Assembly: GCA_965153285.1 (NCBI GenBank)
Contig: OZ229110.1
Source of the DNA: Podarcis tiliguerta
Taxonomy: Eukaryota
Reading direction: 5' to 3' (one strand)
DNA: 64,000 nt
Shown: positions 809 through 49,199 of the stretch, piece by piece
How positions within the stretch are numbered: the first letter of the stretch is position 1
Layout of the letters: every line of letters starts with the position of its first letter
Made by a program: the position numbers and the translations under genes
The notes under the pieces: generated by a model
What the model saw: only the letters and a program-made list of their open reading frames with translations
The model's database searches: none
What the model was told of the DNA's origin: nothing

Positions 809-3800
809 GATGTGCAGGTCCCCGTGTGCCCACTCTGCAGCATCCCGATCCCTGTCAAGCGGGGAGAGATGCCTGACATTGTGGTGGGAGCACACATTGA
901 CCAGGACTGCAAATCGGACCCAGCTCAGCGCAAGCGCAAGGTAAGAGGCTTCATCCGTCCTCTCTGCTGCCTCTTGTGGGACACGTTGCTTTAAGTCCAA
1001 CAGAATCAGATAGATAGACATACAACAGTTGGATACAACCTTAATTTTGTGTTTTTCTATGCATATAGAAATATAATTTCCTTATAAATTAATATTTAAA
1101 CATATACACACACAAAATCTGATATGCCCTGTACTCTGGATTGTGTGTCTCAGCAGACTCTGGGTTCCACAAGCAGGTTTGGGGCCATTATTCAGTGATA
1201 GAGTGTGTGTTTTCTTACAAAAAAGTACCTGTAATTTCCAGGTCAGGCTGGGAGAGACCCCTGTCCCAAACGCTGCAGAGTCTTTGCCAGTCAATCAGCT
1301 AGATGGACCAATCATCTTGATATAACACAGCTTGCTATGTTCCTATGCAGTGTGGTCCAGATGGTTAGGGGTCCTTTCAATGGCAGAACTGTGAGCAACC
1401 CACAGCTAGGGATTTCTGTGGGTCTTTCTCTGGAGGGTATCTGAAGGGCTGGGATAACGGATGAGCTGTGCATCCAAACTGAGTAGCACAAGTGAGTTTA
1501 GACTGGCTGCAGAGTTCAGACTGGCTATGAGCCAAATTGGGGCCAGCCAAGTTAGAAGAACAAGCTTCAAAACAGGGATGGGGGAAATGTGTGGCCCTCC
1601 AGATATTGTTGGACTGCAACTCCCATTAACCCCAGCCAACATGGCCCATGGTTAGAAATGATGGGAGTTGTAGTCCAGCAGCATCTGGAGGCCTGTTCTT
1701 GGGGATTACTGTAATTTGGATGTAATTTCTCATTGGTTAGAGGCTTGCAGTTCGGCATTTCATTGTCATTTGGGCAGTCCAGGACCTCCATGCACACTGC
1801 CCAGGCTTGCGCCCCAGAGAGGTCACTTCGCAATGAGCAAAGGTCTCTTGTATGCATTTACAAAGCAGCTGTGTCCTGGGTGCCCTCCCCCCCCCAACTG
1901 TCTTGAATCACAACTGTGTCCATCTGCCTAGATCTTTACCAACAAGTGTCAGAGGCCTGGCTGCAAGCAACGAGAGATGATGAAGGTTTTGTGTGACCAG
2001 TGTCACGGCAACTTCTGCCTCAAGCACCGACACCCACTGGATCATGATTGCGCTGGCCCTGGGCATTCCCTCTCCAAGGCAGGGTAAAGGCGGGACAGAG
2101 GGCAGGGCTGGGCAAAACACTTGGCATGTGCCAGACACATGCCTGCAGCCATGCAGTAATGCTGGTGTGCATTCTTCAAGAGACATTGGTTTCCTCCCCA
2201 TCCTTGGTTGTTCCAGCACACGATTTGGGGACCTGTGGCCCTCCAGATGTTGATGGGCAACAGTTCACATTGTCCCTGAAAGGATAGTGCTGGAGTGGAT
2301 TCTTGCTAGTCTCAGGGGAAGGGGGAAGGGCTTGCTGCAATAGCGAGAGAGGTCTCCTGTTACCAAGAGTTACGTTTCCCATTTCAGGAGTGCCGCGATT
2401 GCCAGAGCTCAAAAACCTGCCAAAGCACCTACAAGCACTACACCCAGCAATGGAGCCACGAGAGCTGCTGCAGCTCTGCCAACCTCCAGCAGGTACAATA
2501 ATTGCCCGAGTCTGCGTTGTCCCCTACCCTTTCTTCTTATAGCAGCTAAGCCTACTGTACAGCTTCAGGAAGCACTGCACAAGCAACTCCCAATGGACGC
2601 AGGGGTTACGTTCCAAGGCACCCTGATGGATTATCCCTGGGGATTTTCCCTCTCCATCTTACACGCCTCACAAGTAGTGACAGTTGACATCTTTTTTTGC
2701 ACACAGAGCCAGTGAGATGGCAAGAGCACCTCCTCCGCCACAAAGCATATCTCCTCCGGTGGTTGCCCTGCAGAATGGATTGGTAAGTCCTGGCCAGCAA
2801 ACTGGGTATTTACACCATTAAACACAGTCTGTTGCCTTTTCCATTGCACATATGCCACTCTCCAGGTAAATGGCTGCAAAGCTGATATATGTTGGTGGGA
2901 TCACATTCCAGAGTATCCTGGGTGATTTACATAAGAGAAAACAAATGGCTTGCAAAACTGCTTGCAGTCTTAAGCAGGAAAAAATGGGAATAAGACAGAA
3001 ATACAAAGCTGTGTGTTTCCTGGTTTAAGACAGTAATCTGAAAACAGTTTTAAGACTGCAATCCTAGACCCACTGAGAATAATCCTCATTAAAATTGATG
3101 GTGCTTGCTTCTGAGATATATAAACTCCCTCTAGTGAAAACCTCCACAGTGGGGTAGAAGAGCTGAAAGAAAATTCACACCTTGCAACCAATGCATCCCT
3201 TTGGTTTGATAGTACATGGGTAGATGAGTCTAAAAAGTCTGGCCCTCTAGGGGCTGTGGTGGCTCATTTACCAGAAGTAATATTTTTAGTGTTCACTCTG
3301 GAAGTGTATAGTCGATTCTGACCAAACTATGCCTCGTAGGGTACAATATACATCTGGAGGCTTAGTTTGGTCTTGGCATATGCTTTGCCCTGTACCTATA
3401 AGCTGCAAGTTGCTGAGGCTGTTAGCCTCCTCCACGGCAGGCTGAATCTGCTTTTGTGTTTCAGAGTGAGGAGGAAGCGCTGCAGCGAGCCTTGGAGATG
3501 TCCCTAGCAGAGGCAGTGCCCACCCAACCACAACCCCGCAGGTACAGCACGGTTGCGCCAGCCCTGCAGAGATCAGCTGGCTTCGGCACCACTGTGCCAG
3601 GCTGCCTGCTTGGAATCTGCATATATGGGAGACTCTGGCAGAGAATGGAGGGGGGGAGGCTGTGTTAACATTCATGTGCCCAGAGGACTTTTGACATCAA
3701 TTCCAGTCCTCTGAGTGTAAGGAGAGCCTGCTGGATCAGGCCACTGGCCCATCTAGTCCAGCAGATGCCTGTGGGAAACCGGCAAGCAGGACCCGAGCTG

Positions 3801-11199: not shown

Positions 11200-12010
11200 G
11201 TGGAGAGCAGACGAGGGCGCCGGGAGAGGAACGAGCCGCCCCGTCGGAGAGAAGCAGCAGGGGTAGCAGGGTGGGGCAATAGGAGCTGCCCAGGAAGCAG
11301 CAAAAGGGGACGCGGGGCTGGGAGGGACGCAGTCCTTGGCTCCCCCCACCCGCAGCCACCTCCGTCTCCTCCTCCTCCTCCTCTGTCGGGGCAGGGCGGG
11401 GACTCGGAGCCCCGCTGGCCGGGCAGAGCGCGCGGAGCTGCTGCGGGGCGCACGGCGAGGGCTCCAGCCGCCCCATGGCCCCGCTGCTGTTGGCGCTGGC
11501 CGCTGCCTCCCTCGCTTGGCCGTGCGCGGCCGCCCCGTCGGGGAACCGCTTCTCCGAGGCGCGGGTGGCGCGCTGGGCGGCGGCGGCGCTTCGGCACGTG
11601 GCGGCGGCGCAGTGTCCCGAGCGCGGCGGGCTCTTGCCGCGGCCGCAGTGCCAGCGCCTGGCGCGCCTTTCCCAGGGCCCTGGGCCCGCCGTCTATGTCT
11701 CCGAGCCCGCCCGCCCGGGCCACAAGGTGCGGGCGCTGCTGCCCGACGGCTGGGGAGACTGGCCCGGCGCTCCGCCCTTCGTGGCCGGCCGCAACCAGAG
11801 CAGCAGCCCGCTGCGCCCCACCGGCGCGCCCCCCGCGCAAGACGCCATCCTGGTGCTGGACCCCACCCCGGGCGCCAACTTCGGCCACCCGCTCCTTCTC
11901 TTCTATGTCGACTTCAACGTCAGCCCGCGCCGGTGCCGGAGCCGCGACAGCCTCTACGTGGGTAAGTGAATGCCGCATCCTTGGGCCACGCGCGCTCCGT
12001 GGACGACCAC
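11200..12010. promoter_or_regulatory. CpG island over promoter/first exon of the novel gene
   Basis: Very high GC and CpG density against a CpG-depleted background; contains GGGCGG boxes upstream of ATG 11475. Confidence 0.75.
11475..11961 (+). CDS. Novel gene exon 1 (signal peptide, N-terminal domain)
   Basis: ATG in gccgccccATGG context; hydrophobic leader; donor G|GTAAGT at 11961/11962. Confidence 0.9.
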
Positions 12011-15000
12011 TCCCAGCAGAGAACATATTGGCTTGCGCCCATCCCACCCCAGGCTTCCTATTTCCTCCCGTTCCATGGTGCCAGGACCCAGATCAGATCG
12101 GGCATTTGTGCTCAAATCTGCCCGCATTTCAATCCTAAACTACAAGGAGCAATCCTATAGAGGAGCCTGATCCTAAGCATATGCAGAACGCATATGCAGA
12201 ACCGCACCCAGCATCTGATCTGCGCTGTAAAGGCGTCCACATCAGATGACCCGGCATAAAATAAGGTGGTTTAAATAAACGTTGTACAGCGGTTAGATAT
12301 GAGATCTAGTCATATCTGAGGCCCAGTGCCGCTCTGGTTTACAAAACAGGCACTTGCGCCTACCCTTCCCCAAGATTCAGTATCCCAACTGCTGCACCCT
12401 GTGACCCGCCTTATCCTCGGGACATTCTTTTCTCACGAAAATTACTGGCTGGTTTATGCACCTTAATCCTCCTCCTGGTGTTCTTCCTCACGCACTGGAT
12501 CACCTCTTCAGATATTTTGTAGCTTCTTTTTCAGCATCGCTTGGGGCAGAGTGCCCTTTGCCCCAGTCTCTTAAAAGACAGGGAAGAGAATGTTGGGGTG
12601 GGAGATAAACTGTCCACTGAGGATGGGCTAATCTGGAATTAATTAAAAGCAGTTTTTATATTTGATTGATTGATTGAAAACATTTCTAGGCTGCTTAATA
12701 TTAAAAAACCTCTAAACAGTGTACAGAAATCCACAAAAAATAAAATTAGACAGTATCCTAAAAACAGATTAGAACATTAAAAAACAGCAACCCAGGAAAA
12801 CAGTTATTATAGAATCAGGGATTCAGGAAATGCTTGAGCCAAAAGATATGTCTTTTCAAGAAAATCAACTGATGGATGATACTTCAGGTATGGCAGAGGG
12901 AGAGACGTTACGCAGTATAGGAGCAATGTTTGGGGTTGCAAGATTATGTCCTTCCAGATAAGACTGAGGAGTGATTTGGGGTCTCCATCTTGTGACTTGT
13001 CTCAGTTGCTCGAGGGATCTAGTTGCCTGCTCTGCAGTAGTCCTGGCTCTTCCTCTATGCCAGACACTGATTTCCATGGTAGGAGCTAAACGCAGGGTAG
13101 AGGGTTTGGTGTGAGATGTGAGGAGCACCTGCTTACTATGGACTGGTCTTTGGGTTCCCTCTGATCCTATGAGCCAGTGAAATCTGGAAGGAAGGCTGCC
13201 TGGCTTCTCCAGCGTCCTCCTTTCACATATGCTCCTGTTCTCATCTCCTCTGCCTCCCACACACATGCTTTTATAACTGCAATTGGCAAGTGCAGTTGGG
13301 ACTGTTGGGGCTCTCACAGTGTCTTCTTTCCATCAGTGAGTTGTGTGTGACGCTGTCCCTAGCTCAGTGTTTGTGTCAGTCCTGTATGCAGTGGCATCCT
13401 GAGACCAGCCTGCAGGGGTTACTTGGAGAATTTGGGATAGCCAAGAGAGAGGATCTACTGCTGGAGGGGCATCTCCAGTTCCCTCCTGATCCTGGGATGC
13501 GCTGGGGAAAACTCCATCCCTACAGCCTTGAGGGGCTCTCTGGAGTCTAGTGAGCTTCTGTAATCTCAAGGCAGAGGTGGCATCAGCGGAAGAGTTTGGT
13601 ACAGGAAAGTTAGAAGGTGCTGCAGTGCAAAGGGTGACAGGTGGGAGGCTCAGTTGGGTGGAATCTCTCCGGCATGACTGTCATTGATGGGCTAATACTC
13701 AGGGTGTCTTTCAGGGCTTAGTATGAATCAGGGTTTAGCCCTTTGAACACAGGAATCCCAGAATCTGTGATACAAGATATGTGACAGGCAGAAATCAGCC
13801 AAATACTTGTGCTAGTGCAATAGGATTCCCTCCCCTCTGTGCCATCCCCAAATCTGATCCAGAGGGTTGAAGGGAACACCCAGAACAGATTTAAGGGGTG
13901 TGCAAAGGGGAGGAGAGGGAGAAAGCATTACATTGTGCAAGAATTCCTTGCTCTTCGGCGCTGAAAACGACAGTTTATCTGAGCCCAGGGAGCGTTTCCT
14001 TCACATCAGTCTTTCTTGCCGATGTTGAAAAGTAGGATTGTTGTTCTAATCCTAAACCGTCTCACCTGGGAGTAAACTCCATTGAATTCCATAGGATTTG
14101 CTTCTGAGTAGACATAGTAGTTTAGTTAGACATGCTTAGTTAATTAATTGATTTGTTCTATGTAAATGAGGAAATAAAAAAATTCTGAAAGCAGGGAAAG
14201 CATCCTTAAAAAGAAATATATTTATGTGCATTACTGTATATTGCAAGTCCCATATTAGAAGAGATTTTCACTTATGTGGCTGAGACAACAGAGGAGAAAT
14301 GCATCTTCTTTCTTTTAAAAATAATTAACCTTCATTATTTTAAAATGATTAACTTTTTTTTAGTGTGATTAATCATGGAGTCCTTTTTTTAGCCTATCAG
14401 AAATGTGTTTTAATCCATCAGCCTTGTGAATTAATTGGCCAAGCAGTGCAGCCTAACTGGCAACCAACTCCTTTCTTAAGCTCTCCATTTTTGGAGGGAG
14501 TTTTATACCCCATACTTTACACCTCTAGGAGGAAATCCTCTTTTATTCTTCTTGGGGAGACAAGATTCTGACTTGGTTCTGCAGAGTTTACAGTAGAGGT
14601 GTAGTATGCACAGGTGATTATGGCTTGTTGTTTTAATATTTTTATTGAAGTTTTAGATAATATATACAAACAAGAATGCAAAAAATATTGTGAACCCCCA
14701 GCAAAACAGGAGGCAAATGGTCATAAACAGTATATAATAAGACAAAATAAAGAAAAACAAGATGTATATTTTCTCTGGTCTTTCCACAGGGTTGAGGGCG
14801 TTGCACATGAATGCTCTATAAACTGCTCATCGATCACAACTGAAGCAAAGATTCATTCCCATCACCTGTTCCACAGAATCTACTAATTTGTTGGAACCTT
14901 TTTGAACTCTGCTTGTCCCATGGAGAAATTAAGAAAATCAAGAAAATTAAACCATGCACTAAAATAAAATAATATTAATGTATATATAATAATATATTAT

Positions 15001-18000
15001 TCTGTGTCCAGGGTAGCTTTCTACCAGCTCCATCTGGTATGCCAGCTGAGACCCTGCCTGCCTGTGCACTGTCTCGCCAGAGTGGTACATGCTCTGGTTA
15101 TCTCCCACTTGGACTATGGCAATGCACTCTGCGCGGGGCTACCTTTGAAGGTGACAACTAATCCAGAATGCGGCTGTCAGATTAGTGACTGGGAGTGGCC
15201 ACCAGACCATTTAACACTGGTCCTGAAAGACCTCCATTGGCTCCTGGTACATTTCTGAGCACAATTCGAAGTCTTGATGCTGACCTTTAAAGCCCTAAAC
15301 ACCCTTGGTCCAGTATACCCGAAGGAGCATCTCCACTCCATCGTTCAGCCTGGACACTGAGGGCCTTCTGGCGGTTCCCTCATTGCAAGAAGCGAAGCTA
15401 CAGGGAACCATGCAGAGGGCCTTCTCGGTAGTTGCACCTGGCCTGTGGAACAATGTCAAGGAAATAAACAATGATCTGACTTTTAGAAGACGCTTGAAGG
15501 CAGCCCTATATAGGGAACTTTCTCAGCAGGTTTCATTCCAGACATGTTTGTTCTTTGCCTGCAGGCGGCTACGAATGCTTGATTCCAGCCCAGAGGAGCC
15601 GCTGTGAGAACCAGCTGAAGCGCCGACCGGGCCGTGGCAAGGGAAGGAGCCAGCGGTCTGCGGGACGCATCCGCCGCGAGGAGCCGCCCGTCGGTCTCTG
15701 TGAGATCCATTTCCTGCCCATGGTAGTGGTGGCACAGGACCCCAAACACCTGCAAAGGCTGAACTGCGTGGGTAAGTCCCTGGATTGGACGGGCAGTGGG
15801 GTGGAGGGGGGCAGGGTTACAGGATCAGGATTGTAAACCACAAAGGAGACTTCCCCACTTTCAGGATTTAGGAAGTCCAAACGTGGGCAGTGGAGGAAGA
15901 GGGGATGCAGCAGGTAGATAACAGTCTGGCGCAGTGGTTAGATTGCCTGGTTAGGACCTGGGAGACCGAGGTTCAGATCCCCATTCACCTTGAAGCTCAT
16001 ATCTGGCACCTTGGGCCAGTCACTGTCTCTCAGCCTAACCTACCTGGTTGCGAGGACAAAATGGGAAGGGGGAGAACAATGTGACCACCTTTTTATTTAT
16101 TTATTTCAACAGTTTATATACCACTTAACACCTTAGTCCCTAAGCGGTGTACAGTAAGGTGAAAAAGATACACTAATCAGTTAAAACTGTAAAAAAGCAG
16201 AAAACTTTCTTAAAGTGCCTGCAGGAACAGAAAAGGTCTTCAATAGGTGTTGGAGTCTCAGCTGGAAGGGAGCACCACAGAACTGGAACTCAATTGTCCC
16301 AAGTTTGCCCTTGGCCTAGGGCACCTCAACTCACCAATCATTTTCTTATTTCCTGTGTCCAGAGGTGGATCTACTTTGAAACAAATGAAGTTTGAGCTTC
16401 AGGGCCCTGAATCCTGGCAGCGCCCCAGAAGTAACTTCTGTCCCCATCGCTTAAAAAATAATAATGGGTCTCTTAGACCTAATATGAGTGGAGTCATTTG
16501 TTGTTGTCTATATTTCAATAATCCCAAGGTCTGAGAGTCCGTAGAGCAGATGTTGTAAAGGTGTGGTGATCTGTTGTGGAATGACCCCATTGAAGATGAT
16601 AACAGTGGTTACCCAGACCTCGTTGTGAAGGGGCCCCCATGATGGTTCAAGTGTCTGTCTGGGTCTGCTCCATGGGCCTGAGCTTCTTTCACCTCCTCCT
16701 ATCCTGCTACACTTCCTTTTCTTTCCCAGATCTCCGTGGATACAGCCCCTGCCCGGAGCCCCTGCCCCTTGCGAGCTCTAGCTCCACAGCCGCTTACTGC
16801 GAACTCAACAAGAACACGCGGCGATGCCACCGGCAGCAGCTTCCGCTGTACAAGTCTTGCCGCATGTACCAGACGTGTGACCATGCTGTGCTGATTGCAG
16901 GTGAGAAGTGGTGCCTGGGGGCTGCGAGGAGCTGCTGGTTCTGGGAATCTGAAGCCATCAACGGTGTGAGGTGAAATTTTTCCTAGGGTAACAGTTAGGG
17001 CCAGAGGACCAGCTTGTGAGGGCGATAGCGGGAGGGGGCGACATTGTGTGAGAGAGAGCATCGCGCCTCCCTCCCTAAGCTGGCAGAAGCTTCCTGGGCT
17101 TTGGGAAGGAAGCTCCAGACTTTAATACTTCAATATTCTAATTTAGCAGGGACATTTAGGGGAGTAGCCTAGTCCCCCAGTCCACTGACCGCACACCACT
17201 GCAAGCCATTGCATTTGGCCAGCGGATAGATGAGGGTGAATCTGATTGGAGGCTCAGCCTTGTGTTGCGTCAGCCCATTGGTCCATCTACCTGAGTATTG
17301 GCCACTCTGATTGGCAGTGGCTCTCCAAGGCTTCAGACAGCGGACATGCCCAACCTTATCTGGAGATGCCAAGGATTGAACCCGGCTCTTTCTATGTGCA
17401 ACTACATTCTCTGCTACTGAGCTACAGCTTTGTTCTACTGGACATGAGCTTAAAGGGCCCCTTGTCTCCTTGAGGGGCAGTGTTAGTGCTCCTATGCCCC
17501 TTGCAACCAGCTTCAGCCTCTCTTCCACCATGGTTTTTTTCCTGGTATGCTTACCGCGCTTCTCCCCCAGGTGGCTGGCAGGAGCAGGTCACCTACCCCC
17601 GCCATGCGCAGAACCTGCTGCTCTTCTACCAGATGCTGCGACGGAATGGCTTCCGCCAAGAGCACATCAAGGCCTTCTTCGCGAGCGAGGGGCAGGCCTC
17701 AGGTACCAGCACGAAAGAGAGCTAGCTGTCGGCTGCAAGGGTGGGACGGGGCTCTTGGTTTCCTTAGGGGGGTGGGTGACTTTTCAGGGCCCATAGGTAG
17801 GGCTGGGCAATAACCTGGTTTTCAACATTGTGATATATCGCCAGCTAAATATTGTGATAGATTAATATATCATGATGTCTAAAATAAGGAGGAAGGAGGA
17901 GATAAGGAGGGGAGAAAGAAGCAGTTGATATACTTTGCCCGGCCCTACAGCTGAGCAAGTCCCCATGCCGCTCCTGCTCCTGCGAGCTGGAGGGACTTCC

Positions 18001-21000
18001 TTAAATTTCAGCATCAGCTAGCTTCACAAAACGGTGCTTTTTGCTGGCTGCTTCCAGGCGCACACGCACACACAGAAGGGAGGGAAGAGACCTGCTCATT
18101 CAACTCAGGGAGACACAGAAGCACTGGGTGGTTTCCTAGTTTTTCCAATATTGTGATTTTTGCATAATATGTGTGCACACACACACTCATACACACGTAA
18201 TTCACGATATATTGCCAGGTCATTTATTTTGAAACAGTTATCACAATGTGGCCAGAAACCGGTTTTGGATGATATATCAATATATCCCTCCAGCCCTACT
18301 CAGGGGTCGGGATGCCAAGAGCTGCTCTTCAGAGGCAAGACTCTGTTCCTAGCACTTCCTTCTCCCTGCCACCAAGGTTCTGCATTTGGGGGGGGGGTGT
18401 ATTGCATTTCAGAGTGTCACCCTACTTGTCCATCCCACTTGAGAAAAGGCTGGGTGTGAATGCATCTAGCCCTGCTGAAATCTCGCCTTTGGGTTACATG
18501 TCCCTGCAAAAATTACAGGCCTGCACGGCATAGACCAAACCACCTGTGGGGCATTTTGGAGAGTGGGCTAATGAGGGAGCCTAGCAAATATTCCCATGCT
18601 GCTCCAAACTCTGGCCCCTTCCCAGATGAGCAGGATGTGGTGGCAGGGAGCAAGTGGTGGTAGGAGGAATGAGGATGCCACGGGGAAGGTCTTCCCAAAC
18701 TGTGGTCAAGCTTCTTTCAGGTGGTTACCATTAAATACTCAATTGTATTTTCATGCTGCTTCATTTTTCTTTCCTTGCGTTTTATTACATTACAATTTGA
18801 ATCGACAGAACGTAAAAAAACACGTATAAGGAGGACTTGGAATACAGCTTGAAAAATCAGGCAGCATCTAGCATGGTGTATTCCAATTGGTACAACAGGC
18901 AGGAAAAAAATTAAGTGGTGTGCCAAGACCAATGGTTTTTGGGTGGTCTGTGGGAGGGGGGACTGCTGCTTTGGTGTACGAGACTGGAGTGGGTTGGAGA
19001 GAGGAGACAGGCCTTTGGGACATGGGATTAGCAGATCCCTCTCTCCCTCTTCTTTTCTGGACAGTGACTGTGGAGATGGGCGACGTGCACCCAGCCACTG
19101 AGAAGCTGGCCATTCGCTCCCACCTGGCCCTGGTCTGCAGGAGCCTCCACTGCGCCGACTCGCTGGTGCTCTACCTCAACAGCCCAGCAGCCAGCGATGG
19201 CACCATGCTGCTGTGGGATGCCAACCGTAATGGCATTGTAAGTGGGGGGTCAGGGCTGGAAGCGAAGGGAGCTGTCTAGGAGGAGCAGGGCAGCACTTGC
19301 CCATGGAGCCACCAACATTGGCTGTCCCAGGCACTCGTCTCTGTACTCTCTTTACAAAACATCACTAGCCATTTCTGTATTGATTGATTGATTGAATTTA
19401 TATACCACCCTATACCTGGAGGTCTCAGGGCAGTACACAGAAAAGATATATAAAATCAAAATAAGTACAATAACCCAATAACACCTCCCCCAAAAGAGCC
19501 ACATTTCAAAAGGGCATAGGAGACAAAATGAACCTGCTGCTGTTTTCTTTTTTTGAGGATTTAAAAAAAAAATGCCAAGCCAAGCTGATCTATCATCATT
19601 GTTGAGGTATGATGGGAATGGTCCAGTTTTTTTAGCCCTTTGGCCTTAGCTATGATAGGAGGAAGGTTCTATCCCATCCTCTGTCCCCACTATTGATATT
19701 AACCCTCTCCTACTGGAATTTTGCACGTGCAGACAAAACCCTCCAGAGCTTAAGGGTGGATAGGGTGTGCATTATCAGAGGGTGGTGGGGTGCCATGATG
19801 GATCCAGGTGTGACATCACTGTAGAAGGAGAGGAGAAGGGTATGTGCCTCTTTCCTCCCTCCCTCCCACCCACCGACCCCTCCTCTGGTGCACAACCTCT
19901 ATATGTGAATTAACGTGTGGGGGCACAAGAAATACAGTACTGCACAAGTTACAAAGTGGTGATGCTTATTTCACAGCAGGAATATCATCTCTTGGGGCAC
20001 ATCTCTTGCCAATTTATTGGGGGGAGTAACCCACCAGGTAAGTTAGGCAGAGGCAGAGAGAGATCAGAGGGAGAAATACTTTGAGGAAATGGTCTAAATT
20101 AGTCTCCTTGAGCAATGCTATTAAATACATTATTTTGTCAAGGAGTCTGTGGCTCTGCCCAGGAATTGTCTCCAGGTGAATTGAGGCAGCCGTACGCTGA
20201 CCCATAGAAATCCAATAGGAAACCCGTCATGGCGTTCTTCATTGCACCTCACTTTTAAAAAGTTAGAATTTTGAATCCGTGACAATAGCCACAGCCACAG
20301 GCCACCTGCCCAGTGTTCAGCCAAATGCTGATGAATGTTGCTTGTTGGGAAAAGCTACAGGTTGGTGCAGAATAAAGCAAGCAGCAGCAGCAGCAGGTTA
20401 ACTTTCAAGTAAAACCGCTTGGAGGTTTTACAGCAGTCAAGCGGTATATGCATCTTGTTAAATGAATGAATCCTACTTCATCATAATACATCCAAAAAAG
20501 GACCTTGGCTATTGATGCCAATGTCACCTGCCTAGCCAAGTAGGGAATGGGGATGCTAACGATATAAAGGAGACTTTCACTCATGCATTTATCACATGGG
20601 GGTAAGCTATGATCAATTGCTGGCAGGGAGCAGTGAAGTCGGGGTGCCAAGTAAACCCAACTGGGGCAGGAAAATGCGGAGTGGCTGCCTAAGATGCTTG
20701 TGCACACATACAAAGCGGCACCAGCCCTTCTCAAAGGGCTGCATTTGGCCATTTGCCAAGTTTCCTTTGGGGTTTCCTAGGCTGGAAATGGAAAGTGAAG
20801 TGAGCCACTTTTGGCAGTGGGGTGAAGGAGGAGGAGGAGGTCATCCCACCTGTCCCAGCATGTCCTGGGAAGCCTGACTGGAGGAAGGAGAGATGCTGAC
20901 AGAACTGCAGGTGGAGGCTGCAGCCCTCTCCTCTCCTCTGTTCCCTTCAAAGGGCCGTCCAGCTCTTTCATGTGTGCCTGCAGGGAGAAAACAACACCGG

Positions 21001-22870
21001 CCTTTGCAGTGGGTGCTCGCCCTGTCTTGCTCTTCCCCATTTAATCCGCTCCTTTTAACTCCCAGGCAGTGGAATCCCCTTGATCTCCCAACTGTGGAGC
21101 GGGGAGGGGTGTGCGTGTGTGTCCGTGACCAAGGGGCAGGTGCTGATGAGCTGTCCCTTCCCTGCAACAGGCAGATCCTAAGGAGCGGTACCCCATCTCG
21201 GAGCTGCTAGCAGACTTGGAGAGCTGCAACGCTCGCCGGGTTCTCCTCTTCCTTGACCAGAGCTATCCGGGGCCACTGACAAAGAAGCTGCGGGCATCAC
21301 GGCGCCATCCCAACGTGGTGCTCATACGTAGCACCACCACCGCGACTGCCACCACTACCGCCAGCGGTGGGTCGGCTTTTGCCGAGTTCTGGGCCGGACT
21401 GCAGCCTGACCAGTGCCTCCTCCAGCATTTGTTGCCGGTAAGTGCCGTGGAAGGAAGGTGAGCCGTGATTGTTCGGAGTCCAAGGCGTGGTGTTTGCAGA
21501 GAATAGGAACGTAAGGAGTCAGGCTAATTGTCCAATGTTGTCTACTCTGGCAGTGGCTCTCAGGTTTCATGTTGCCTGCTGTCAGGTCCTTTTAACTGGG
21601 GACACCGGGTTTCGAACCTGGTACCTTCTGCCTGCATATGCTCTGCCACCAATTTATGGTCCCTCAAGAGATGGCAAGAATGCATTTGTTTGTTCTGGAC
21701 ATAAATACCAGGAGGCTCAAAATAGTGACTAGGAAGCCCGTCCTCAAATTGCTTTTGGCAGGTGGCATTAGCAACAGGTGTCTCTCCAGTTCAAAGTGGC
21801 TGCTTCTAGTGGCAGCATCACTAACTGGGTGGCAGCAGTCCCTGGGCTCTACTCCCAGTTCCAGGGGAGGGGAGCGGAGAGTAGGGACATTGGTGCTTAG
21901 CCAATTAACATAGATGAAAACTGGCCTGAGCTGTGCAGCAAGTTCAGGGCAGATCACAGCTCCTGGTAAGGCCAAGCCATCTTATGCACCATCTTGCAAC
22001 CAGTTTGGTTTCTCCTGTGTGTGTAGGGAAAGAGTTGGGAATCAATTGGGCAGCACGGCAGACTGAGAAATAAATGCTTAGGTGTAGAGGCAGCAATGCT
22101 GAAAACTAGAACTTGGCAAATGGCCAGAGCCAACCTTTGCTCATGTAACTGACACACACGCCATCTGTGATGACAATTAGAGAATGACATCTGAAGTTTG
22201 TGGAAGGTAGCTTGCACTAAAGGAGTCTTTTGATGTGCAATATGGCACCTTTGGAAAGAAAAATGGGTGTTTTGTTACATCCCACCCAATTAGTTTTACT
22301 GCTCAAAAACAGACCATTGCCATTAAAAGGAAAAGGAGTGTACATTCAAGGTAGTTTGAACTGATTTTTTAATCAAGTGCAATGGATCCAGGCTAAATTG
22401 GTTAATTCCAAGTGATGGCACAGGGTTGGATGCAACAAACTAAAGGAAGTCACTGAAACTTACCATTTTTAAGAGCATGTGGAAGCCAGCCAGGCAGGCT
22501 TAATTCAGTTTGCTTTACTGGCCATCCTTACAGGCCGATTGTATAAGATACTGAGATAATGTACCTGAAACACTGATGCGTTGGAAGTGCTATATAAGCA
22601 TTAATGCTGATGACAGATTGAGTTGTGGCCCAGGGCAACCTTAAGTGAAGCAATCTCTCTCGTTCCTTGCAGGTGGGTCCGTGGTCTGCAGTCTTTGGCT
22701 CGGGCACCCCAGCCCAGTTGCTCAATGTCTCATTAGCAGGGGCACCCTGCCACTCTGTGCCACCCCTGGGGGAAGAGGAGCGCCAGCGCCGCTACCAAGG
22801 CTGCCAGAACCTTCCCACCATGTTGTGGTACCAGAGCAGGCACCAGCAGCTGCAACAGGACGACGACTGA
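11475..22870 (+). CDS. Uncharacterized secreted protein, 544 aa, 7 exons: signal peptide + Cys-rich N-terminal region + catalytically degenerate clan CD/C13 (legumain-like) domain
   Basis: Exons 11475-11961, 15565-15771, 16730-16900, 17571-17702, 19065-19237, 21171-21437, 22673-22870 (487+207+171+132+173+267+198=1635 nt, open, ends TGA). Intron phases 1,1,1,1,0,0 all compatible; GT donors (4 of 6 are GTAAGT) and pyrimidine-tract CAG acceptors. ATG sits in a CpG island; AATAAA at 23410-23415. N-terminus MAPLLLALAAASLAWPCAAA is a typical signal peptide; HAVLIAGGW..YPRHAQNLLLFYQMLRRNGFRQEHIKAFF resembles the legumain N-terminal strand/helix. Confidence 0.9.
15003..15520 (+). mobile_element. L2-clade LINE 3' fragment (degenerate ORF2)
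   Basis: VVHALVISHLDYGNALCAGLPLK..VLKDLHWL..RAFSVVAP.LWN motifs with frameshifts. Confidence 0.75.
15565..15771 (+). CDS. Novel gene exon 2 (basic stretch, RIRR furin-type site)
   Basis: ttctttgcctgcag acceptor; GYECLIPAQRSRCENQLKRRPGRGKGRSQRSAGRIRREEPPVGLCEIHFLPMVVVAQDPKHLQRLNCV; G|GTAAGT donor. Confidence 0.88.
15922..16090 (+). mobile_element. tRNA-derived (MIR/CORE-like) SINE
   Basis: A-box tggcgcagtgg, B-box ggttcagatcc, CORE-like ccttgggccagtcactgtctctcagcctaacctacct; inverse copy at about 49258-49460. Confidence 0.6.
16730..16900 (+). CDS. Novel gene exon 3 (Cys-rich linker, start of C13-like domain)
   Basis: ttttctttcccag acceptor; DLRGYSPCPEPL..YCELNKNTRRCHRQQLPLYKSCRMYQTCDHAVLIA; G|GTGAGA donor. 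Confidence 0.9.
17571..17702 (+). CDS. Novel gene exon 4 (RH motif helix)
   Basis: ttctcccccag acceptor; GGWQEQVTYPRHAQNLLLFYQMLRRNGFRQEHIKAFFASEGQAS; G|GTACCA donor. Confidence 0.88.
17798..18298. mobile_element. Probable non-autonomous DNA transposon
   Basis: tagggctgg ... ccagcccta terminal inverted repeats with repeated gatatatc subterminal motifs; TSD not clean. Confidence 0.5.
19065..19237 (+). CDS. Novel gene exon 5 (His-strand equivalent, first half of EF-hand loop)
   Basis: tcttttctggacag acceptor; [58 protein letters not shown]; |GTAAGT donor. Confidence 0.9.
21171..21437 (+). CDS. Novel gene exon 6 (Cys-strand equivalent)
   Basis: cccttccctgcaacag acceptor; ADPKERYPISELLADLESCNARRVLLFLDQSYPGPLTKKLRASRRHPNVVLIRS..SAFAEFWAGLQPDQCLLQHLLP; |GTAAGT donor. 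Confidence 0.9.
22673..22870 (+). CDS. Novel gene exon 7 (terminal)
   Basis: ctcgttccttgcag acceptor; VGPWSAVFGSGTPAQLLNVSLAGAPCHSVPPLGEEERQRRYQGCQNLPTMLWYQSRHQQLQQDDD*. Confidence 0.86.
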   Translation: MGPWSAVFGSGTPAQLLNVSLAGAPCHSVPPLGEEERQRRYQGCQNLPTMLWYQSRHQQLQQDDD

Positions 22871-23415: not shown

Positions 23416-24790
23416 AGGGCCACTGTTCTTGGCTTTCTCCTTCAGTTGCTGTTTTAACTTCTTGTGGTGCCTTCTTGGAGTTAGAAGCAGTAAGGCAATG
23501 AACTCATGTCTGATGCTGCAAAGATAAAGCTGAAACTGATCAGAACGAGGGATTGGCTCCTTTCCCCCTCTGTGTCTGTTACTCTCTCCAGCGCTAGGTC
23601 CATGGATAGTTCTGTCTAAAGATCTAGGGGCAGAATTCCCAGTGTCTTGGCCAGGGCCACCATCACTTGCCCACGCAACCCAAGACTGCCTGGAGCTGAA
23701 TAGCTTTACAGTAGGAACCATTTAGGTCCTTCTGAAAGCGGCCTCCATAGAGCCACCAAACAGAAAAGCAGCTACCTGGGCTGGGTAGGAGATGGAGAGG
23801 CGTTTCTTATTATTTTTCTGTGCCCTGCTCTTCCTTTCTACCCTGTCTCCATGACTCCAGGTCCCCTCTTGTTTTTCCATGTCCTTGTAGTCAAGGGATC
23901 CAAGTAAACCGGACCCATTTGAGAAGCACTTTCTCTCTGTGCTCTCCGTTTTGCAGAAGTGAGAAGGGTCTCCATCCCATCTGCCTGCCAGCCAAAACTC
24001 CTTTGAGATAGAGAACCTGTTGTTGTCAGCATGACTCCAAGCTCCCACCACGGCCCAATAAGGATGATGGGAGTTGTAGTCTGCCAACATCTGGAGGGGG
24101 GGCATGGGGTTCATTACCCTAACCCTTTTTGAATCCTTCTCCCCCGCAGGCAAAACTAGAAACGGAATCCAGGGATCTGAAAACACTTTTTCGAGTTTAT
24201 GAAAATTAAAACGGGACACCTCAAAATCAGAACTTACAAAAACACACACACAGCCATTCTGCAGGCATCTCCCTCTGTGGTTGTATACAAAGTGCTGGCA
24301 AATGTTCACGCATGCCCCCCACCTCCACACTCCATCCATCTTTGCAAGGGAAGACATTTTGCTGGGGAGAACAGTGGGGCAAGGCAGCCCTGGTCCCTGC
24401 CTCCCCTCACCCACCACCCTTTCGCAATTCCCTGATAATACACCTGGATCACCAAGCAACAGCTTTCCCAGGAACGCTGGCAGTAGCTTGGAGAATATAC
24501 TCTGAAGTTGCTCTAGCACTACGGGCAGGTCCTGCTCATGAAGAACTGCATGCTGGGAACCATACGCAGCCTGTAGTCTTCCTCCAGTTTGGTCTCCATG
24601 GCTTCACTGCTAACTTGGTGGATCATCTGTGTGCTTTGGGTGCCTGAGCATTTCCCCCTTTATGCCATACAGAGGAGGTTCAGAAATCTAACAGCAGAGG
24701 TGGCAGCTGCTGCCTTTTTGGCTTCGAAGCCACATCCTTGCAGGATTTGCTGTTGTCACTGTCAGCTGCTGAGTAGTTCTCGTTGCTTGG

Positions 24791-49199
<24,409 letters not shown>

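What the first reader, a model, noticed from the sequence alone, without database searches (positions are those of the whole stretch)
19217..21185. Canonical EF-hand-type Ca2+ loop (DANRNGIADPKE) assembled across the exon 5/6 junction inside the peptidase fold
Seen only after splicing: D384-A-N-R-N-G-I|A-D-P-K-E395 fits the 12-residue loop D1-x-N3-x-N5-G6-x-x-D9-x-x-E12. It lies between the His- and Cys-strand equivalents and would account for their longer spacing (48 aa vs 41 in legumain H148-C189). The motif also supports the splice model. Legumain has no such loop. Inference: Ca2+ regulation beside the degenerate active site, a DxDxDG-type loop outside a helix-loop-helix.
Basis: partly seen in the sequence, partly recalled or inferred. 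Interest (0 to 1): 0.7.

Follow-up and report, generated by a model that had tools for sequence, protein, structure and literature searches.

The report
Calcium loop on a dead protease
This reptile gene encodes a protein with a legumain-like fold that lacks both catalytic residues and is likely secreted; it keeps an acidic loop, conserved from sea anemones to lizards and shared with bacterial relatives that retain those residues, which is predicted to bind calcium as a structural clamp rather than as a true EF-hand switch.

Summary
A 7-exon gene (11475-22870, +; 544 aa) carries D384..E395 across the 19237/21171 junction, a GT-AG joint seen in contigs of 4 of 8 runs laid (related species, RNA status guessed). 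Positions 1, 3, 5, 6 and 12 fit in 117 of 124 close (vertebrate-type) homologues and 38 of 43 distant animal rows, while non-ligand positions vary freely: a metal-loop signature. It is not an EF-hand: the model gives strand-loop-one helical turn-strand, position 8 is Ala, and half of the bacterial relatives have an 11-residue version. It is a Dx[DN]xDG-type loop in the caspase/legumain fold (Z 16.6 to legumain), a context not listed in the motif survey I read. The protein (zebrafish si:ch211-67e16.11 family; the acoel wound gene wie-1 is a member) has Pro and Ser at the His and Cys sites. A scattered bacterial C13-like group shares the loop and an N-terminal region but keeps His-Gly and Cys (34 of 35). 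So the loop is older than the intron and likely older than the loss of catalysis. Calcium binding is predicted, not shown; a structural role is more likely than regulation.

The parts
11475..11961 (+). Exon 1: hydrophobic N-terminus (likely signal peptide, by inspection and helix 2-21 in the model) and start of the N-terminal region with the D-P-x-P-x-A-x-F-G-H-P motif shared with bacterial homologues
   Evidence: not covered by any laid contig
15565..15771 (+). Exon 2: N-terminal region, basic low-confidence linker
16730..16900 (+). Exon 3: Cys-rich linker and first strand of the peptidase-like domain
17571..17702 (+). Exon 4: helix with the R/H-H-A-x-N motif that aligns to the legumain R-H-Q-A-D stretch
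19065..19237 (+). Exon 5: His-strand equivalent and loop positions 1-7
19184..19186 (+). Pro373 at the catalytic His position
19217..19237 (+). Predicted Ca2+ loop, positions 1-7 (D384, N386, N388, G389, I390 carbonyl)
19238..21170 (+). Phase-0 GT-AG intron inside the loop (1933 bases)
21171..21185 (+). Predicted Ca2+ loop, positions 8-12 (D392, E395)
21171..21437 (+). Exon 6: end of the loop, helix, Cys-strand equivalent
21261..21263 (+). Ser421 at the catalytic Cys position
22673..22870 (+). Exon 7: C-terminal part and stop codon

Best explanation
The 12 residues D384-E395 are a conserved acidic loop, predicted to bind one Ca2+ in the Dx[DN]xDG manner, set in the surface hairpin between the His and Cys strands of a legumain-fold protein that lacks both catalytic residues and is likely secreted. 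Shown: splice junction, fold, loss of the dyad, conservation pattern, the same loop in bacterial homologues with an intact His-Gly/Cys pair. Inferred: side chains of D384, N386, N388, the backbone carbonyl of I390, E395 and (through water) D392 hold the ion; at extracellular Ca2+ the site would be filled all the time and would stiffen the hairpin next to the old substrate cleft, which the pseudo-enzyme would use as a binding surface. The loop was likely inherited from an active C13-like ancestor, and the intron was inserted into it later.
For: Conservation: 117 of 124 proteins match W-D-x-[DN]-x-[DN]-G-x5-E-x-Y; 3 misses lack the region, 3 are gene models that leave the frame at this junction, 1 (P0012) has Cys at positions 4 and 6. 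In 44 distant animal rows, of 198 domain columns, positions 1, 6, 12, 5, 3 rank 3, 7, 12, 28, 30 for conservation, and non-ligand positions 2, 4, 7, 10, 11 rank 188, 117, 173, 127, 178; positions 3 and 5 swap almost only between D and N. Fold: model of orthologue P0003, pLDDT 83.8, pTM 0.85, loop blocks 93; legumain 4aw9 Z 16.6, rmsd 2.9, 201 aligned. Dyad: Pro 44 of 44 and 38 of 44, Ser 44 of 44 and 28 of 44, Cys 0 of 88 animal rows; profile alignment to the bacterial group 99.7%, E 3e-25. Bacterial group: loop region found in 35 of 39 proteins, 34 of 35 with His-Gly and D-Q-C, 26 of 35 starting D-x-[DNS]-x-[DNS]-G; N-terminal region also homologous, 93.6%, E 2e-7. Solved precedents outside EF-hands: a D-x-N-x-N-G loop (3c68) and a loop with the extra ligand five residues on (2zxq), and the stated bias of such motifs to secreted proteins, structural when permanently bound (PMC3123361).
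Against: Vertebrate loops have Asn at both 3 and 5 (low charge). 9 of 35 bacterial loops depart from the start pattern; the tapeworm member P0248 lacks the loop and P0155/P0242 have a shifted one, so it is dispensable in some lineages. The signal peptide was judged by eye. The tree (loop and dyad columns removed) joins animals with the bacterial loop group at 99/89, but an AU test on 32 of those 65 rows does not reject animals + legumain (p 0.44); only 6 outgroups were used and the bacterial group was found with an animal profile.
Confidence: 0.7

Rival explanations
1. Regulatory Ca2+ switch: the loop fills and empties with local Ca2+ (secretory pathway, wound fluid) and gates the old substrate cleft or a partner contact; in the bacterial enzymes it would gate activity.
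For: Metacaspases have an allosteric Ca2+ site from Asp residues in the same His-to-Cys interval (TbMCA2 D173/D189/D190 plus D220; PMC4357240 passages); some Dx[DN]xDG sites are regulatory; two Asn ligands could tune the affinity into the high-micromolar range (inference); the acoel member wie-1 is wound-induced.
Against: The animal protein has no dyad to switch on; no second paired site or EF-hand; a secreted protein sees near-constant millimolar Ca2+ (established knowledge).
Confidence: 0.13
2. The loop binds no metal in the animal protein: it is an Asx-rich turn or partner-binding surface kept for its shape.
For: In vertebrates the whole stretch is conserved, including A8 (115 of 117) and K11 (113 of 117), so vertebrate conservation alone does not single out ligands; the model folds the loop confidently without an ion.
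Against: In distant animals and bacteria only the ligand positions are held, with D/N exchange at 3 and 5 and Glu at the end; AlphaFold2 often gives the ion-bound shape without the ion (my knowledge).
Confidence: 0.12
3. A true canonical EF-hand grafted into the fold.
For: 12-residue spacing with Glu at 12 in nearly all animal rows; positions 10-12 form one helical turn in the model; 6 of 43 distant animal and 5 of 11 bacterial rows fit the PROSITE-style pattern.
Against: A strand, not a helix, enters the loop and the exit helix has 3 residues; 0 of 44 vertebrate rows fit the pattern; no Pfam EF-hand hit at E up to 1 in 8 orthologues; Glu falls at position 11 in 17 and at 10 in 1 of 35 bacterial loops.
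Confidence: 0.03
4. The protein is an active hydrolase that uses Ser421 as nucleophile, with Ca2+ as cofactor.
For: Ser is invariant in 44 of 44 vertebrate rows; D419 and a His in the first helix are conserved in vertebrates.
Against: The same column holds Asn in 9, Thr in 2 and other residues in distant animals; the general-base position is Pro; the helix His is present in only 11 of 32 distant rows with a residue there.
Confidence: 0.02

Closest known systems
[quoted passage not shown] 2011, PMC3123361)
   Same: D1-x-N3-x-N5-G6 start, later acidic ligand, loop between regular secondary structures, secreted host protein; 3c68 has the same D/N/N ligands, 2zxq the same five-residue gap.
   Different: Host fold is caspase-hemoglobinase; 'caspase', 'legumain', 'peptidase' occur 0 times in that paper's main text and in 2 of its 3 supplementary files (1 was a picture and not searched). 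Binding not shown here.
Canonical EF-hand
   Same: Spacing 1-3-5-7-9-12, Gly at 6, Glu at 12 on a helical turn.
   Different: No entering helix, no full exit helix, Ala at 8, unpaired, length variants.
Legumain / GPI transamidase PIG-K (peptidase family C13)
   Same: Fold (Z 16.6 and 16.2); first strand and helix match weakly by sequence (E 0.004; Pfam C13 over cut-off only in the lungfish member).
   Different: His>Pro, Cys>Ser; about 260-residue N-terminal region; no legumain-type C-terminal prodomain matched; extra loop. This genome's legumain lies elsewhere on the contig and has no loop.
Metacaspase and gingipain Ca2+ sites (clan CD)
   Same: Ca2+ bound on the same fold; in metacaspases largely within the His-to-Cys interval (PMC4357240 passages).
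   Different: Those sites are built from separated Asp residues and activate live enzymes; this one is a single contiguous loop on a pseudo-enzyme.
Unnamed bacterial C13-like group (Acidobacteria, Planctomycetota, Ignavibacteria, Krumholzibacteria where named)
   Same: Same loop, same flanking W and Y, same cysteines, homologous N-terminal region.
   Different: Intact His-Gly and Cys; a second acidic D/N-rich loop after strand 2 that vertebrates lack; varied C-terminal anchors (FlgD-Ig, dockerin, TIG, hydrophobic tail).

Membership tests
Canonical EF-hand | 12-residue loop with O ligands at 1, 3, 5, 9, 12 and Gly at 6 | tested here: met
Canonical EF-hand | Hydrophobic I/L/V at position 8 | tested here: not met
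   Ala in the window and in 115 of 117 matching homologues
Canonical EF-hand | Helix-loop-helix | tested here: not met
   strand 384-385, coil, 3-residue helix 397-399, strand 400-401 in the P0003 model; predicted model, pLDDT 93 here
Canonical EF-hand | Paired second hand / Pfam EF-hand match | tested here: not met
   one motif match in the protein; no EF-hand family at E up to 1 in 8 orthologues
Dx[DN]xDG-type loop (non-EF-hand) | D-x-[DN]-x-[DN]-G linear motif in a loop | tested here: met
   position 5 is Asn as in 3c68
Dx[DN]xDG-type loop (non-EF-hand) | Further acidic ligand after the motif | tested here: met
   Glu12 in 117 of 117 matching close homologues and 40 of 42 distant 12-residue rows; its contact with an ion is inferred
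Dx[DN]xDG-type loop (non-EF-hand) | Backbone superimposes on the calmodulin loop (RMSD under about 0.6 A) | not testable with these tools
Dx[DN]xDG-type loop (non-EF-hand) | Bound Ca2+ | not testable with these tools
   needs experiment or ligand-aware modelling
Clan CD (caspase-hemoglobinase) fold | Alpha/beta sandwich matching caspase, legumain, metacaspase | tested here: met
   Z 16.9-13 for the top 15 rows, all clan CD; Foldseek E 2e-5
Peptidase family C13 (active enzyme) | Catalytic His after strand 3 | tested here: not met
   Pro373
Peptidase family C13 (active enzyme) | Catalytic Cys after strand 4 | tested here: not met
   Ser421; Cys in 0 of 88 animal rows
Peptidase family C13 (active enzyme) | Pfam PF01650 over cut-off | tested here: inconclusive
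   0 of 7 window exon frames; 1 of 8 orthologues; most bacterial relatives at or near cut-off
si:ch211-67e16.11 / wie-1 family | Full-length similarity to named members | tested here: met
   exon 6 is 78-84% identical to squamate proteins; profile hits to fish members; wie-1 P0187 at E 1.8e-25, grouping with the other acoel member at 100/98

The most novel reading that the evidence does not exclude
Animals before the cnidarian-bilaterian split took up a bacterial secreted C13-like protease, killed its active site and kept its calcium loop; the resulting pseudo-protease is a conserved secreted wound-response factor (the Egr target wie-1 in acoels) whose Ca2+-clamped cleft binds a partner, retained in fish and in lizards and possibly lost in mammals and birds.
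Probability: 0.1. Interest if true: 0.82.

Novelty: new variant of a known kind. Interest (0 to 1): 0.5.

Why it matters
The loop type is well known, but I found no report of it on the caspase/legumain fold, and no paper on this gene family (searches named in the full report). The loop ties an uncharacterised animal-wide secreted pseudo-enzyme to a group of bacterial proteins with an intact dyad, which gives a direct way to test both what the calcium does (activity with and without Ca2+ in the bacterial enzyme) and what the animal protein lost. It also gives a fold, a dead active site and a mutable site to wie-1, a wound-induced gene of the acoel regeneration network, and names its likely lizard and fish counterparts.

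Tried and rejected
Pfam on the seven exon frames: nothing relevant. Sequence search of PDB with the close alignment A1: 0 hits at E up to 10; with A2 only weak plant legumain hits. Atlas feature search on the N-terminal region: no usable hit; structure rows under TM 0.5 outside the family; that region was not folded alone, so its fold is open. Earlier findings of the scan: nothing by place, sequence or words. Paralogues: exon 5 finds only itself in G000, 4 candidates scored. RNA runs: no holder on record as RNA was listed; raw RNA runs X21, X23, X24 had thin cover and did not list the 19237>21171 joint. Exon-6 skipping (annotated isoform P0023) was not listed as a joint in the 8 runs laid. A Ca2+ site on PIG-K, which I half recalled, is not mentioned in the main text of PMC9098846, so I dropped it. 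Gehrke et al. 2019, the source of wie-1, is not held. A search for legumain primed-side structure papers gave nothing useful, so I make no claim about which subsite the hairpin forms. Exon shuffling as origin of the loop was rejected: bacteria have it in one piece. The AU test did not reject animals + legumain, so transfer from bacteria is not shown. No complex prediction was run: no partner is proposed. The bacterial model is of low confidence (pLDDT 59; loop blocks 55-73) and was used only for fold identity (legumain Z 19.3, rmsd 3.3, 210 aligned).

Full report
Observation. The region holds exons 5 and 6 of a seven-exon gene on the + strand (11475-22870). Joining the exons by coordinates gives 544 residues with AG/GT at all six introns. 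The joint 19237>21171 is present in contigs of 4 of the 8 runs I laid (X2, X3, X4, X12; three studies; related species; RNA status is the tool's guess) together with the neighbouring joints; it was not listed in X1, X21, X23, X24. Exon 1 was not covered and rests on orthologue similarity. A loose version of the motif arose in 18 of 100,000 shuffles, a post-hoc figure.

What the gene is. Exon 6 finds uncharacterised squamate (78-84%), turtle, lungfish and fish proteins; a profile finds 171 proteins, 120 listed, many named si:ch211-67e16.11. A full HMMER scan gave 498 hits at E up to 0.001, 150 listed. I looked up names for 30 of these: they include sea urchin, amphioxus, tunicates, a chiton, crustaceans, insects, nematodes, flatworms, two acoels and Nematostella. 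One is named wie-1 of Hofstenia miamia. Passages of PMC10163032 and PMC13046036 describe wie-1 as a member of the wound-induced Egr network, highly expressed only in muscle; I saw no functional test of it, and the original paper is not held. No named hit was a bird, crocodilian or amphibian; one cluster led by a tilapia protein also carries a ferret label (P0115), which I take for a mislabel. These lists are capped, so loss in mammals is not shown. Exon 5 finds no paralogue in the genome.

Fold and active site. AlphaFold2 on orthologue P0003 (same 12-mer) with 99 aligned rows gave pLDDT 83.8, pTM 0.85. The C-terminal half matches clan CD: metacaspase 6w8r Z 16.9 (rmsd 3.1, 201 aligned), legumain 4aw9 Z 16.6 (2.9, 201), PIG-K 7w72 Z 16.2 (3.5, 208), tied within 1; Foldseek agrees. 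The His position is Pro (44 of 44 vertebrate rows, 38 of 44 distant animal rows) and the Cys position is Ser (44 of 44; 28 of 44, with Asn 9, Thr 2, others 4, one gap); no animal row has Cys. wie-1 has a His near the His column but Ile at the Cys column. The animal family is thus a pseudo-peptidase by sequence. The spacing is 48 against 41 in this genome's legumain, which has a short turn there.

The loop. 117 of 124 proteins match W-D-x-[DN]-x-[DN]-G-x5-E-x-Y; the 7 misses are explained in the For line. Vertebrate conservation is not selective, since A8 and K11 are also nearly fixed. The distant animals are informative: 38 of 43 rows with the region aligned match D-x-[DNS]-x-[DNS]-G-x5-[ED] (44 rows, one without the loop; two of the five misses look like gene-model errors), and ligand positions 1, 6, 12, 5, 3 rank 3, 7, 12, 28, 30 of 198 columns while 2, 4, 7, 10, 11 rank 188, 117, 173, 127, 178; position 9 ranks 69 and is mostly D/E/S/T. 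That is the pattern expected if side chains 1, 3, 5, 12 and a backbone carbonyl at 7 hold an ion. In the model a short strand enters the loop, positions 10-12 form one helical turn, and a strand follows: not helix-loop-helix. PMC3123361 (I read parts 1-2 of 7, keyword passages, and keyword hits in 2 of 3 supplementary files) documents such loops in 16 contexts, with variable distance to the last ligand, biased to secreted proteins; its figure S1 text shows a D-x-N-x-N-G loop in 3c68 and a five-residue gap in 2zxq. The abstract of PMC10536834 gives a protease precedent (PepX) where the role of such a loop stayed ambiguous.

Bacterial relatives. The same scan returned proteins matching only the peptidase domain, with S/T-N-H-G and D-Q-C at the dyad positions; more were found (10 loci among 185,579 genomes by exact peptide patterns, a lower bound; named ones are Acidobacteria, Planctomycetota, Ignavibacteria, Krumholzibacteria; many others are unnamed metagenomic proteins that I treat as bacterial by similarity). 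Of 39 proteins the loop region was found in 35; 34 keep both catalytic motifs; 26 start with D-x-[DNS]-x-[DNS]-G; the closing Glu is at 12 in 17, at 11 in 17 and at 10 in 1. Profile alignment to the vertebrate family is 99.7% over 193 columns, and the N-terminal regions also align (93.6%, E 2e-7; 20 of 24 animal and 20 of 20 bacterial rows). Five other bacterial C13-like proteins examined as outgroups lack this loop at that place, one having a different acidic insertion nearby. A tree of 65 rows with loop and dyad columns removed gave one animal clade (100/99), one bacterial loop clade (94/98) and the two together (99/89); but with 32 rows the data do not reject animals + legumain (p-AU 0.44), legumain is a long branch, and PIG-K was not included. 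Shared loop, cysteines and N-terminal region argue for close kinship; direction and transfer are not shown.

The intron. Eleven divergent, mostly unnamed, genomic open-frame fragments stop after loop position 7 and go on with Val, as a GT read-through would (11 of 25 fragments examined; the other 14 look vertebrate), so the phase-0 intron is likely old in animals. As bacteria have the loop unbroken, the junction did not create it.

Mechanism. Shown: splice, fold, dead dyad, selective conservation, shared ancestry of the loop with dyad-intact proteins. Inferred: secretion, Ca2+ binding, ligand roles, constant occupancy, use of the cleft for binding. I put 0.70 on a structural Dx[DN]xDG-type Ca2+ site, 0.13 on a regulatory switch, 0.12 on no metal, 0.03 on a true EF-hand, 0.02 on a Ser enzyme. 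Ca2+ sites in clan CD are known (metacaspases, gingipain, clostripain; passages of PMC4357240) but are described there as sets of separate residues.

Novelty. 'ch211-67e16.11' occurs in 0 papers of the library. Searches for clan CD/C13 with calcium, caspase-hemoglobinase pseudoproteases, inactive legumain-like proteins and calcium-binding loop with legumain/C13 (0 papers) showed, in their listings, nothing on this family or loop. Subscription journals are mostly not covered, and one supplementary figure was unreadable. Verdict: a real, conserved feature; a known loop kind in an apparently unreported fold context; interest 0.5, most of it from the bacterial active relatives and the wie-1 link rather than from the motif itself.

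Noticed in passing
P0187 (UEC49169.1): The acoel family member is wie-1, a wound-induced, muscle-expressed Egr target in Hofstenia; it keeps the loop (D1, N3, N5, G6, E12).
   Followed up: partly
L001:2671-4086 and related bacterial proteins (P0183, P0259, P0321): A second D/N-rich loop after strand 2 of the bacterial group looks like another Ca2+ site; cnidarian-type members (P0336, P0346) keep a trace of its start, vertebrates do not.
   Followed up: partly
window 11475-16900 (residues about 25-280): N-terminal region with confident strands and conserved cysteines, shared in part with the bacterial group; no known fold assigned; may be a prodomain in the bacterial enzymes.
   Followed up: partly
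window 15565-15771: Basic disordered linker ending R-I-R-R, a possible furin site; R-x-[RK]-R is present at this place in only 33 of 114 homologues.
   Followed up: partly
window 21171-21437: Exon 6 is phase 0 at both ends; an annotated isoform (P0023) skips it, which would cut the loop after position 7 and remove the Cys strand. Not seen in the runs laid.
   Followed up: partly
window 869-3563 (+) and about 24000-35000 (-): Neighbours: exons of an AN1 zinc-finger gene upstream and an ABC transporter gene downstream on the other strand; I recall these as ZFAND2B and ABCB6, adjacent in human without this gene between them (recalled, not checked).
   Followed up: no
window 21327-21365: Short Thr-rich repeat insertion (TTTATATTT) in exon 6, longer than in the orthologues aligned.
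   Followed up: no
P0248 (Hymenolepis), P0012 (Euleptes): The tapeworm member lacks the loop; one gecko protein has Cys at loop positions 4 and 6 and an aberrant gene model, possibly a decaying copy.
   Followed up: no
window 14960-15560: Repeat-derived sequence in intron 1 with very high read and contig depth and frames resembling a LINE reverse-transcriptase tail (by eye).
   Followed up: no
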